A DNA stretch of 64,000 nt from Octopus vulgaris (Eukaryota), in NCBI GenBank assembly GCA_951406725.2, contig OX597824.1:93744001-93808000 (forward strand), given 5' to 3'. The position numbers were made by a program, and so were the translations under genes. Of the stretch, positions 7,361 through 54,361 are shown one piece after another (position 1 is the stretch's first letter; each line of letters opens with the position of its first letter). A model generated the notes under the pieces. It was not told where the DNA came from, searched no databases, and saw only the letters and a list, made by a program, of their open reading frames with translations.

Positions 7361-7509
7361 GAGAGAGGCAGTTCGCTCACATGACTCACTAGCATGTATG
7401 GACGCGTGGCGGTCGATGAGTCGCGAACTTTAGGCATCTTTGTATAGAAGCCATCGACAAGACAGATACACAGTCAGACGGACGGACGACCAGAGAAACA
7501 GGCAGACAA

Positions 7510-25420: not shown

Positions 25421-26031
<611 letters not shown>

Positions 26032-34478: not shown

Positions 34479-34894
34479 GACCAAAGTTATTTATGTGTTC
34501 ATATGTAGGCCTGTTCTGTATTTTTCGATAAATATATTTTCTTTAATTAGACTTGTACAGAAATAGCTTCCTTGAATCGGTAGATGCGGAAAACCGAAAT
34601 TTGGTTGGAGATTACCTATACATCGATCTGTGTTCACTCAAAGGAATCTGTCTATAACTTGCGAAGGGGGTCTGTTCCTTATGCTGTGTGGTTCTCCGTC
34701 TAAATGACATACTTGTCTGTTCTATATAGTTGCATCTTCAACCTGAACAAGTTATAAAAGAAATTAAATTCTCAGATGCACAAATCAAGTCGGCCTTAAT
34801 TGTAAACATCCTCCCTTGTTTGAAGTGGAATTCCACATACATACGTGTGTGTGTGTATGTGTGTATGTATGTGTGCGTTGTATGTATGTGTATG

Positions 34895-48740: not shown

Positions 48741-48957
48741 TATGAAGGGTTGCTGAAACGTTCTTGGCTTTAAGAGTGTCGAGAAAGTCCTGGCTGGAGG
48801 CCCAAATTTCCTTGTTGTTTTACAGATCTTAGAAAAACTGAAGGGCCACTGTATTATGTGTCTTCAATCTGAAAAGGGAATATGTTGAATAAAATCATAA
48901 CTGATCTTATTGTATTTTCTTTTACCCAAAGCGAAAAATCTTTCAGCACCCCTCGTA
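48741..48957 (+). mobile_element. Mariner-derived MITE, copy 1
   Basis: TA-flanked TIRs tatgaagggttgctgaaacgttcttggcttt and aaagcgaaaaatctttcagcacccctcgta; internal relic of the transposase C-terminus. Confidence 0.8.
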
Positions 48958-49073: not shown

Positions 49074-49291
49074 CAAGTGAGTGCTGAAAAGTTCCTGGCT
49101 TTTAAGGGGATCGCGAAAGGGCTGATTGGAGGCCCAACCTTCCAAGTTCTTTTACAGGGCTTAGAAAAACTGAAAGGCCGCTGCAATAAGTGTGTGAATC
49201 TGAGAATATGATATGTTGGATAAAATCATAATTAATTGATCCTACTTTGTTTTTTTACACAAAGCAAAGACATTTCCCCCACACCGTCGTA
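49074..49291 (+). mobile_element. Mariner-derived MITE, copy 2
   Basis: gtgctgaaaagttcctggcttt..; encodes GLEKLKGRCNKCVNLR, resembling the mariner C-terminal GI.KL..RW.KC...G.Y motif; ends ..ccgtcgta. Confidence 0.8.
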
Positions 49292-51436
49292 CTATCATAC
49301 CTGTATATATGCACAAGCGTATGTACGTCTGTGTGTGTGTGTGTGTGCGTGCGTGTGTGTGTGTTTGTGTGTATGTGTTTGTGTGTGTGTGTGTGAGTAT
49401 CAGACAAAACCAGCCAATATAAAACGAAGCGATTGCAGCGTTAACCTTGAAGATGTCTTAATTATGAACATTTTTTATACGTTATTTTTTCAGTTGTTCA
49501 TAATTGAAGTTTGATCTCATGCGACAGTAATTTATATTGTTTAAACAGTATTTGATGTGACTTAAAGAAAATAGTTCGTTATCTGTAACATGTCATTCGA
49601 TTCGACAAAGCAGACGTTTCGTTGTTGGCACGTGTTTGTAACAGAAGCAGTCATGTGGTTGTTCGGCATACGTATGGAATCTTCTACGTCCATGCGTATT
49701 TTATCGCAGATGGAAATATATTCCTAGTGAGCGAGATACCTGAGAGAAACTGATGTCGCTTCAACATCGATCTCAACACCTCTCTAAAGGCCTCTTTCCA
49801 CTTCACCTCCTTCAACTGTCAACAGCATTGATGACATGCCAAGGTATTATGACAGCTTGCAAAGGAAAGCGACGAAGAGATGTGTCTATACCTGCAGTAA
49901 GTGTTAGAAATATTTGGAAATGTTAACATTTTCAATTTCTAGAAAGCTAACACTAAATCTTCTTGCCTTCTTTAATGATAACATTAAGAAACTGTGAGTT
50001 CCTCGAAATTCTTCGCAACGGCAATACGAAGACCACTGGGCCTATAAACAAGAGTTACCACCCTGAGGTACGGGGGCGGGAAGCAGTCGATTATATCTTC
50101 AGGAATATTTATTTTGCCGATTTCAGAAGTTTAAAAATCAAAAACACTTCTTCAAACCGTGAGTTCTGAACATGAAATAATTTAATTAAATACGGCGATG
50201 CATTTTCGTTCAGGCTTCAAATATTCTGTATTAACTTTTGGCGTTTCTAACAATATAATGTTTACAAACGCGTTACCACTTCAAATATACCTGAGGCATA
50301 TTCCAACTCATTCCTAGCGAAACTGTATTTATGCACATCCCTGCTTAGAGCTGTCACCCCGTATAATATTTACAATAATCATTTTCTTGGGTTTATGATG
50401 AGGAATGTTTAAAAATCATCAATTCTTCGAGATATTATGAAGTAACGATTATCTTCCTCGTACTAATACTCTGCTAGGAAACTCCATATAGTATATTATT
50501 GAAAAGGTTCTGTCACGAGTCCTTAAACTTTTAGGACCCGTTACCCGCATTTTCATGTCGTGAGAGTGCCCCAGATCACAACATTCTCCCAGAACGAGGG
50601 GCCATCTCGTCTCAGACCTATGAGTGATCGTCAGTGAAAAGCGCCATCCACCAGGTCACACGACTTCACAGTATATTACAGCGAATACCACCCACAAAAT
50701 AATATAAACCATTTCAGCTCAACTGTCTAGAATTTCTCCATTCAATCAGATCAAAATATGAAACTATTTTTACTAATCCTGGAAGAAAACAATTAACCAT
50801 CGTGGACAACAGAAAATTATTTATATATAATCGAAAAAACTCTAAATTTGAAATATTATGATTCGTTCTGTTTGTATTTTATATTGCTTTAACTGTGTAT
50901 TAGTGTTTATTTATTTATTTAAAAGTTTTGTTTGTTTATCTTACTCTGCGTATGTTTCTCTTCAAAATATTGTATTTTAATTCAGTAAATATTTAAACGA
51001 CATCTTAATAAAACTTAAATGGATATTATTTAGTCTTTTCTTTAGGTTTTAACATATTTTAGACGTTAGTATGTTTCAGTGTTCTATACTATATACAGTT
51101 AGATTTGCCCCAATATTTCTTATCGATAGTTACTTATTTTACCGACATCATTTTTTTATATTTTTGCAGTTTTTACTTTTACAGCCATATTGTCTCAAAC
51201 GTGAGCTTCTTCTCAGGAGACACTTTGTGCAGCGTATTGTCTTTCCGTGTCCGAATGTACACGAACATATTATGTAAGACTGTACATAACCCTATTTCAT
51301 TTAGATCTGCTTAGTACAGCTTCAATAAGTATAAATGCATGCTTGTATATTTTGTCAAGGTTATTTCTACAGATATTCAATAGAAATTAAAGACAACAAT
51401 GATTTTTTGCGATAACGTTTCCTATCGAGACGTCAG

Positions 51437-51562
51437 ATGTAAACAAACAATGTTATCGAAGAAACAAAATGGGTAATGAATGTATACGCCATATTTCGAG
51501 GGCTGTTGTCCCTTCATCAGCACCCATCTAACCCATTCATTCTTCGAATACATTGTTTACAT
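51437..51562 (-). ncRNA. Candidate type I hammerhead ribozyme
   Basis: Minus strand: stem I 5' arm, CUGAUGA, A-GGG-acaacag-CCCUC, GAAA, stem III AUAU/GUAU with GGC loop, AUA cleavage triplet, stem I 3' arm; stem I extends ~40 bp with G-U pairs. Confidence 0.6.
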
Positions 51563-52152
51563 AGCCACAGCATACTGTAGTGTTAAGTTATTGGATATAC
51601 CAATTTACATATTAAATGCATACCTGGAGCTGGAATGGAAACATTAATAATTTGTAGGTCCTTGGTACTTTGTTATGCAAACATAACATACTATAGTATG
51701 TTTGAATAACGAAATACCACGCACCTACATTTCATTAAACTTTGTACATATGTGTGCACGTGTGTGTGAGTGTGTGTGTGTGTGTGTCAGTGTGTCTGTG
51801 TATGTGACAATTAGTTGGTTGTCATAATAAAACTCAAAATCTTCTCCGGCATCTCATCAGTTATGATATATATATATATATGTGTATGTATGTATGTATG
51901 TATGAATGTATGTATATATGTGTTATAATAATGTCGCCTAATATTGTCTACTAATTTAAGAATAATGGTATGATATGAGGAAAATTCGACTGCTATTTTT
52001 GCCAACTCGTCAACCACGCAGAAGCCTTCCCTATTTGGCCGGAGAATACTTTGCTATTGTCATTTAAGCACAGAACAACTGATGATGAAAGAAGTCTACG
52101 ATGAAGTCGAGACAATCCCGTCTGTTTTTGTATATCAGGAAATACACTGCCT

Positions 52153-53214: not shown

Positions 53215-53373
53215 GCTGCGAGTGGATGTGTGGTAAGTAGCTTGCTTACAAACCACATGGGTCTGGGTTCAGTCCCAATGCGTGGCACCTTGGGCAAGTC
53301 GTTACTATAGTATCGGGCCGATCAAAACCTTGTGAGTGGATTTGGCAAACGGAAACTGAAAGAAGCCTGTCGT
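53215..53373 (+). mobile_element. SINE family B head
   Basis: gagtggatgtgtggtaagtagcttgctt..gggttcagtccc..cgtggcaccttgggcaagt..gaaactgaaagaagcc. Confidence 0.85.
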
Positions 53374-53734
53374 GTATTTATATATATATATATATATAAT
53401 ACAAAATAAGAAAATGGAGGAATTCACCTTAATAATCAACTACCAGATAATACCCATTCACATAATTTATTAACCAACTACATATGAACATCAAGGTCAA
53501 ACACAATAATACAGAACAAAACGGTGCACATCAATGAGTAATATGATACCATAAGTACAATACGTATAAATAAATATAAATAAATATAAATATATATATG
53601 TACGCATATATGCATACATATATGTACATACCTACATATATCTCTCTCTCCTTCACTCTTCGTCCTTCACTCTCTCGTTGCTCACACGTGACCAGCGGCT
53701 ATCGTTATTTTTTCCTCTGGATTTACAAGAGAGA

Positions 53735-53950: not shown

Positions 53951-54361
53951 GTCTCAGGAGTGGCTGTGTCGTAAGTAGATTGCTTACCAACCACATGGTT
54001 TCGTGTTCATTCCTACTGCGTGGCACCTTGTGCAAGTTTCTTCTACTATGGTTTCGGACCGACGAAAGCCTTATGAGTAGATTTGGTAGATGATAGAAGA
54101 CCGTCGTATATATGTATATACATATATGTGTGTGTGTCTGAGTGTGTGTGTGTGCGCGTGTGTTTATGTGTCTGTGTTTGTCGTTTAGCATCGCTTGACA
54201 ACCGATGCCGGTGTTGTTACGTGACCGTAACTTAGCGGTTCGGCAAAATAAATCGATAGAATAAGTACTAGCGTAACAAAGAAAAAGTCTTGGAATCGAT
54301 TTCCTCGACTAAAAGCTGTGCTCCAGAATGGCCGCAGTCAAATGACTGAAACAAGTAAAAG
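53951..54361 (+). mobile_element. SINE family B, full length
   Basis: Head, (TA)(TG) spacer at ~54107-54175, tail ending aaatgactgaaacaagtaaaag. Confidence 0.9.

What the first reader, a model, noticed from the sequence alone, without database searches (positions are those of the whole stretch)
51437..51562. Candidate hammerhead ribozyme closed by an unusually long stem I
Seen: the minus strand has CUGAUGA (51520-51514), a GGG/CCCUC stem II preceded by an extra A, GAAA (51497-51494), a short stem III (AUAU-GGC-GUAU) and an AUA triplet, predicting cleavage between 51483 and 51482. The core is closed by ~40 bp of imperfect pairing (AUGUAAACAA..UCGAAGAA..AAUGGGU..AUGGGUG with CAUUCAU..ACCCAUU..UUCUUCGA..UUGUUUACAU), and several mismatches are G-U only on the minus strand. 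Known: minimal type I hammerheads with weak stem III occur in Penelope-like element terminal repeats and retrozymes and often need dimerisation. Inference: a retroelement-derived self-cleaving RNA that may still be active; the stem II register is imperfect, so it could be decayed.
Basis: partly seen in the sequence, partly recalled or inferred. Interest (0 to 1): 0.7.

Follow-up and report, generated by a model that had tools for sequence, protein, structure and literature searches.

The report
Fossil hammerhead in Penelope-spread retrozyme repeat
This is a real hammerhead (self-cutting RNA) motif inside one ageing copy of a 411-base, protein-less jumping repeat with at least 160 copies in this animal genome; the repeat was likely spread by Penelope-type retrotransposon enzymes, and this copy is predicted to misfold and is probably no longer active.

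Summary
The motif is real: a complete type I hammerhead core (51520-51483, minus strand) with a 36-bp closing helix (fold z -4.6). It belongs to a 411-nt non-coding repeat with at least 162 hammerhead-bearing copies, about 81% identical to each other, with no young copies found. The long stem I is a family trait (38 pairs, 88% of cells paired in 49 copies). The family has an extra A, four G-C pairs closed by G10.1-C11.1, and a palindromic stem III, the published signature of Penelope-like-element hammerheads. This copy keeps every core base, but two stem II changes favour a slipped hairpin (92% against under 1%). Insertions show Penelope footprints: inverted arms, over-unit-length copies, and two fixed 3' ends (52 of 76 segments). 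The window's insertion has both ends. Verdict: a decayed member of an old non-LTR retrozyme / non-autonomous Penelope family. Cleavage and expression are untested, and no partner enzyme was found. The scan already noted younger retrozyme families with the same footprint elsewhere in this genome; a look-up by sequence did not find this family.

The parts
51348..51695 (-). Main arm of the insertion: positions 41-387 of the 411-nt repeat unit, ending at the family's fixed 3' end B
   Evidence: 88% identical to the family majority; boundaries from paralogues
51698..51742 (+). Inverted short arm (unit positions about 52-93), ending at the family's second fixed 3' end A; folds back on the start of the main arm (boundaries approximate)
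   Evidence: E 9e-13 to unit 42-102, against 0.038 for the alternative reading as unit 6-29; end class
51514..51520 (-). Hammerhead core C3-A9 (CUGAUGA)
   Evidence: position 7 varies freely in the family (A 23, U 20 of 49)
51513..51513 (-). Extra A between A9 and G10.1, typical of Penelope-element hammerheads
   Evidence: A in 45 of 49 copies; PMC4209133
51498..51512 (-). Stem II and loop 2; four G-C pairs in the family, here G-C, G-U, G-C, A x C; predicted to slip
51494..51497 (-). Core G12 A13 A14 A15.1
51484..51494 (-). Stem III: 4 bp with a 3-nt loop, self-complementary apart from its central G; unstable as a hairpin, stable as a two-copy duplex
   Evidence: hairpin +2.6, duplex -7.6 kcal/mol
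51482..51483 (-). Predicted cleavage site after the AUA triplet (untested)
   Evidence: hammerhead numbering
51521..51562 (-). 5' strand of the long helix I
51437..51482 (-). 3' strand of the long helix I

Best explanation
The site is a type I hammerhead motif inside one decaying copy of a 411-nt non-coding repeat family that was likely mobilised as a non-autonomous Penelope-like element (a non-LTR retrozyme); this copy is predicted to misfold stem II and is probably inactive. Shown: core, helices, family, unit length, inverted and over-unit-length insertions, two fixed 3' ends, decay. Inferred for the ancestral element: tandem copies were transcribed; two hammerheads paired their palindromic stems III and cut after AUA; unit-length RNA may have been ligated into a highly paired circle, of which the 38-bp helix I is one arm. 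A Penelope-type RT/GIY-YIG protein supplied in trans would then have nicked AT-rich DNA and started cDNA at two A/C-rich internal sites about 115 nt apart, writing one arm from each strand. After insertion the copies drifted, including CpG loss of C11.1 and G12.
For: At least 162 distinct hammerhead rods (150, plus 12 of 37 exact 26-mer hits that are not in that list, counted by hand). Family structure: helix I 87.9%, II 88.0%, III 95.9% of cells paired against 37-52% for slid partners. The commonest non-CpG variants fall at tolerated places: core position 7, A-U/G-U pairs, one G-C/A-U pair (17 vs 13; Fisher p 0.038). Extra A, G10.1-C11.1 and palindromic stem III match PMC4209133. 52 of 76 segments end in two windows covering 37 of 411 positions, in A/C/T-rich sequence, like the internal start sites of a Poseidon element (PMC11167929). 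24 of 60 distinct loci have an arm longer than one unit. Two rods in one insertion share diagnostic variants (0.83 vs 0.55, 6 pairs). Decay: best BLAST identities 80-88%, terminal branches median 0.08, CpG columns 27% changed, only 4 exact core+II+III matches genome-wide (a lower bound). This copy: canonical stem II under 1% vs slipped 92%; the family majority has 56% canonical.
Against: No partner enzyme was identified. The young 781-aa Neptune-like element has no canonical core and no clear similarity to the unit. A tblastn of it against 100 partly overlapping family loci hit only one, beyond an assembly gap and a microsatellite. Covariation is weak: 11 pairs with two-sided change, not above the shuffles (200 of 500); the covariation score was reached by 2 of 500 shuffles, which relatedness alone can give. 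The structure was drawn from the majority sequence, which inflates its edge over slid controls. The spacing of the two ends (about 115 nt) exceeds the published 30-40 nt tail. Long tandem arrays were not seen; the longest arm is about 1.75 units. No 5' ends pile up at the cleavage site, so there is no genomic trace of cleavage. Nearest-neighbour folding ignores core tertiary contacts and proteins, so inactivity of this copy is a prediction. Two of the six within-insertion pairs share only 0.62 and 0.73.
Confidence: 0.8

Rival explanations
1. The copies are 3' fragments (pseudo-LTRs) of an extinct or unsampled autonomous Penelope-like element rather than a stand-alone retrozyme.
For: The hammerhead has Penelope-element traits (extra A, palindromic stem III; PMC4209133). 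Inverted arms and fixed ends are PLE traits (PMC8557442). GIY-YIG search gave 6136 candidates, only 150 scored.
Against: Long arms run back into more unit sequence. No PLE-protein similarity lies next to the unit in 100 loci with about 1.5-kb flanks. A very divergent ORF could have been missed, as only one PLE protein was used as query.
Confidence: 0.12
2. This particular copy is still a working ribozyme, kept or co-opted at this locus.
For: All 11 invariant core bases, G10.1-C11.1, stem III and the first 7 bp of stem I are intact, although 26 of 49 copies have lost a core base. Non-CpG core changes across the family are fewer than expected (18 vs 30 in 46 rows).
Against: The copy is no better kept than its sibs (8.9% vs mean 6.5% non-CpG divergence; branch 0.11). 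An intact core is seen in 23 of 49 copies. Stem II slips. There is no second hammerhead of the family in the 64-kb window for a cis dimer, and no Pfam domain above cut-off in 145 of 167 frames tested.
Confidence: 0.06
3. The long helix is a hairpin of a MITE-like DNA element or a pre-miRNA-like structure, and the core words are chance.
For: No Rfam hammerhead hit; the minimum-energy fold does not form stem III.
Against: 0 hits in 200 shuffles; the majority sequence has a textbook core, with free variation at position 7 only; the unit is circularly permuted and has no terminal inverted repeats of its own.
Confidence: 0.02

Closest known systems
Metazoan non-LTR retrozymes (Cervera and de la Pena 2020, PMC7229834; Li, Clavereau and Pollet 2026, 10.64898/2026.07.22.740005)
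   Same: Non-coding low-GC unit of a few hundred bases (411 nt; mussel 350-390), one type I hammerhead per unit, head-to-tail repeats, predicted highly paired circle (z -7.5 against 40 shuffles), coexistence with Penelope elements.
   Different: Only partial tandems up to about 1.75 units and many inverted pairs were seen; the family is old with no young copies; the hammerhead has the extra A of PLE motifs and a 38-bp helix I; expression and circles are untested.
Hammerheads of Penelope-like element terminal repeats (PMC4209133; Poseidon of Anolis, PMC11167929)
   Same: Extra base between positions 9 and 10.1, G10.1-C11.1, palindromic positions 15.2-16.2, single dispersed motifs and opposite-strand pairs 100-700 bp apart, two preferred 3' ends in A/C-rich sequence.
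   Different: No ORF; helix II is 4 bp (7-8 in the schistosome minimal motifs); helix I is 38 bp (4-5 there); helix III is 4 bp; the ends lie about 115 nt apart rather than 30-40.
Young 360-, 485- and 490-nt hammerhead repeats noted by this scan in the same genome (unchecked notes)
   Same: By their notes: Penelope-type footprint, two fixed start points, one with an unusually long hammerhead.
   Different: This family is 411 nt, old and decayed; a look-up by sequence found no match. I did not compare the sequences directly.

Membership tests
Type I hammerhead ribozyme | Conserved core CUGANGA / GAAA / UH | tested here: met
   All present in this copy; intact in 23 of 49 copies
Type I hammerhead ribozyme | Three helices, open at helix I, with G10.1-C11.1 | tested here: met
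   Family-wide pairing; in this copy helix II is possible (3 bp) but predicted under 1% populated
Type I hammerhead ribozyme | Match to Rfam hammerhead covariance models | tested here: not met
   No hit; none on intact copies either, so the models do not cover this variant
Type I hammerhead ribozyme | Loop 1-loop 2 tertiary contact | not tested
   A small internal loop follows 7-8 bp of helix I and loop 2 is 7 nt; no structural test was made
Type I hammerhead ribozyme | Self-cleavage | not testable with these tools
   Needs an in vitro assay
Penelope-element hammerhead variant | Extra nucleotide between 9 and 10.1; palindromic 15.2-16.2 and loop 3 | tested here: met
   A in 45 of 49; duplex -8.4 vs hairpin +2.9 kcal/mol for the majority
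Non-LTR retrozyme | Non-coding 150-450 nt unit with a type I hammerhead, repeated head to tail | tested here: met
   411-nt unit; 24 of 60 loci exceed one unit; L026 and L061 span two hammerhead positions. This window holds under one unit plus an inverted piece.
Non-LTR retrozyme | Active by the Li et al. criterion: two consecutive units with complete hammerheads | tested here: not met
   One hammerhead at this locus. Elsewhere L061 has two intact cores in tandem.
Non-LTR retrozyme | Expressed as linear and circular RNA | not testable with these tools
   No RNA data could be examined
Autonomous EN+ Penelope-like element | RT plus GIY-YIG ORF between terminal repeats | tested here: not met
   No such frame joined to the unit in 100 loci
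Penelope-mobilised insertion | Inverted 5'-truncated arm, partial tandems, two preferred 3' ends | tested here: met
   spacing about 115 nt, longer than the published 30-40

The most novel reading that the evidence does not exclude
An extinct 411-nt circular RNA carried a hammerhead of hybrid build (Penelope-type extra A and palindromic stem III, 4-bp stem II, 38-bp rod as stem I). A Penelope enzyme copied it from two start sites 115 nt apart, one per cut DNA strand. Its few hundred fossils would record the retrozyme-Penelope link and a ribozyme variant that Rfam models miss.
Probability: 0.4. Interest if true: 0.42.

Novelty: new member of a known kind. Interest (0 to 1): 0.24.

Why it matters
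It adds one more, and older, retrozyme-like family to a genome rich in them. It gives genomic support (insertion footprints) for the proposal that animal retrozymes ride on Penelope enzymes. It also shows a hammerhead build that Rfam misses. As a single locus it is an ordinary fossil repeat; nothing points to a host function.

Tried and rejected
Rfam scans: no hammerhead hit on the window or on intact copies. Sequencing runs: none was listed, no RNA holder listed; this is no evidence on expression. A 42-nt exact motif found nothing; the shorter motifs found 4 and 37 matches. Partner search: the young 781-aa Neptune-like element is unrelated. A PLE fragment near one copy (L124) lies beyond an N gap and a microsatellite and was rejected as a partner. 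A-to-I editing of templates: A>G 5.8% vs T>C 4.2% overall, but not enriched in paired A (5.5% vs 6.1% unpaired), so not supported. 5' ends at the cleavage site: none; 16 ends are scattered over unit 228-299. Target-site duplication at this locus: none clear by eye. A second minimal hammerhead just downstream of the rod was considered by eye and rejected: stem I does not pair. RNAalifold found only 8 pairs on the decayed alignment. First-look candidate counts (923, 1503) were not taken as copy numbers. Lunse et al. (PMC5785218) was not held.

Full report
Observation. The closing helix has 36 pairs in the centroid fold, four of them G-U. The fold z-score is -4.6, with 0 of 200 shuffles as stable. 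A type I descriptor, written after seeing the motif, finds this site alone in the window and nothing in 200 shuffled windows. Rfam gives no hammerhead hit here, in six other family loci, or on a copy with intact core and stems II-III.

Family. The window lies in a 2.8-Gb, microsatellite-rich animal genome; a cephalopod is my inference, and the scan's earlier notes say the same. The site is part of a dispersed repeat. Paralogues match 51348-51695, and their overlaps define a circularly permuted unit of 411 nt. A covariance model built from 49 rods returned 150 of 150 scored candidates as matches. An exact 26-mer gave 37 hits, 25 of them in that list (counted by hand). That means at least 162 hammerhead rods and, by capture-recapture, roughly 220 or more (biased low). 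No young copies were found: best identities are 80-84% to this copy and up to 88% to another. The tree is star-like, with median end branches of 0.08 and a few weakly supported subgroups.

Structure across copies. On alignment A1 I scored 38 pairs of helix I, 4 of helix II and 4 of helix III. Paired cells are 87.9, 88.0 and 95.9%, against 37-52% for slid partners. The structure was drawn from the majority sequence, which favours it. True two-sided covariation is weak: 11 pairs, reached by 200 of 500 shuffles; covariation score reached by 2 of 500; one pair is G-C 17 / A-U 13, p 0.038 uncorrected. More telling is where the common variants sit: core position 7 (A 23, U 20) and purines facing U. 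The long stem I is therefore a family trait. The whole unit also folds strongly as a circle (z -7.5, 40 shuffles), though the opposite strand folds nearly as well (-119.6 vs -126.8). The family register of stem II is four G-C pairs closed by G10.1-C11.1 after an extra A. Stem III is a palindrome that is unstable as a hairpin and stable as a two-copy duplex. These are the traits that PMC4209133 lists for Penelope-element hammerheads.

State of this copy. It keeps all invariant core bases, as do 23 of 49 copies; G12, in a CpG with C11.1, has become A in 11 of 49. CpG columns are 27% changed against 6.8% for ordinary columns. Non-CpG core positions show 18 changes where 30 are expected (46 rows, after dropping two rows with large deletions and one near-duplicate). 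This fits selection on the source templates and drift afterwards. This copy differs from the majority at 19 columns. No second family hammerhead lies in the window. I judge it probably inactive; this is a folding prediction only.

Insertion anatomy. The locus is a main arm (unit 41-387) plus an inverted arm (about unit 52-93) joined head to head. Across 76 non-overlapping segments, 26 end at unit 380-394 and 26 at 84-105, in A/C/T-rich sequence; the window's two arms use one end each. Inverted pairs and partial tandems are common. 24 of 60 distinct loci have an arm longer than one unit. Rods within one insertion share diagnostic variants more than random pairs (0.83 vs 0.55; 6 pairs; 0 of 20000 resamples), which shows a shared subfamily and fits, but does not prove, one RNA template. 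PMC8557442 describes inverted 5'-truncated arms and 30-40 bp tails in PLE insertions. PMC11167929 shows a Poseidon protein nicking AT-rich DNA on both strands and starting cDNA at two internal sites in an AC-rich stem loop. That paper also found that its hammerhead needed protein and was dispensable for insertion in vitro, so cleavage need not have been central here either. No 5' ends cluster at the cleavage site.

Partner. The genome holds a young Neptune-like element (clade name recalled from its cysteine linker and PMC8557442) with an intact 781-aa RT/GIY-YIG frame. It shows no canonical hammerhead core and no clear likeness to the unit. Its protein hits none of 100 partly overlapping family loci next to the unit. 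The donor enzyme is unknown. No Pfam domain passed its cut-off in 145 of 167 candidate frames of the window; short exons would be missed.

Verdict. This is a new, old member of the known non-LTR retrozyme / non-autonomous Penelope class, and this copy is probably a fossil. Searches for 'hammerhead ribozyme' + 'octopus' and 'retrozyme' + 'cephalopod' listed no paper on such a family; 'extended helix I' listed none on helices of this length. Supplements were not read and may list it. Papers seen: PMC4209133 parts 1-2 of 4; PMC7229834 passages and parts 2-3 of 6; PMC11167929 parts 1-2 of 4; PMC8557442 passages; PMC6765202 passages; 10.64898/2026.07.22.740005 part 1 of 5; Lunse et al. only as cited in PMC6765202. 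Hammerhead numbering is recalled. The scan's own notes already describe several younger families with the same footprint in this genome, unchecked by me; none matched this sequence or place.

Noticed in passing
G000, e.g. L051:811-4826 (C5:1040500-1047500): A very young Neptune-like Penelope element (97-99.6% identical copies, intact 781-aa RT + GIY-YIG frame, about 1-kb 3' region with internal repeats) in which no canonical hammerhead core was found.
   Followed up: partly
window 34503-34833, minus strand: Broken fragment of a Penelope-like element (49% and 36% identity to the 781-aa protein, E 6e-15).
   Followed up: no
window 25562-25879, plus strand: A frame that looks, from recall, like the C-terminal restriction-like endonuclease of a non-LTR retrotransposon; no Pfam hit.
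   Followed up: no
window 53220-53398 and 53958-54037: Copies of a common dispersed repeat, probably a SINE, also beside many other loci.
   Followed up: no
L124:5520-7500 (G000:C37): A different Penelope-like element whose 3' end carries a minimal-hammerhead-like motif near 7468-7497 with U in place of C3.
   Followed up: no
L066:682-786, minus strand: U6 snRNA match above the gathering score, about 620 bp from a family insertion.
   Followed up: no
L017 and L022 (G000:C24:12.55-12.57 Mb): Two near-identical copies in opposite orientation 17 kb apart, probably a recent segmental duplication; like this window's copy they favour the slipped stem II.
   Followed up: no
window 48756-48905 and 49088-49236: A degenerate direct repeat with a period of about 332 bp (75-80% identity).
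   Followed up: no
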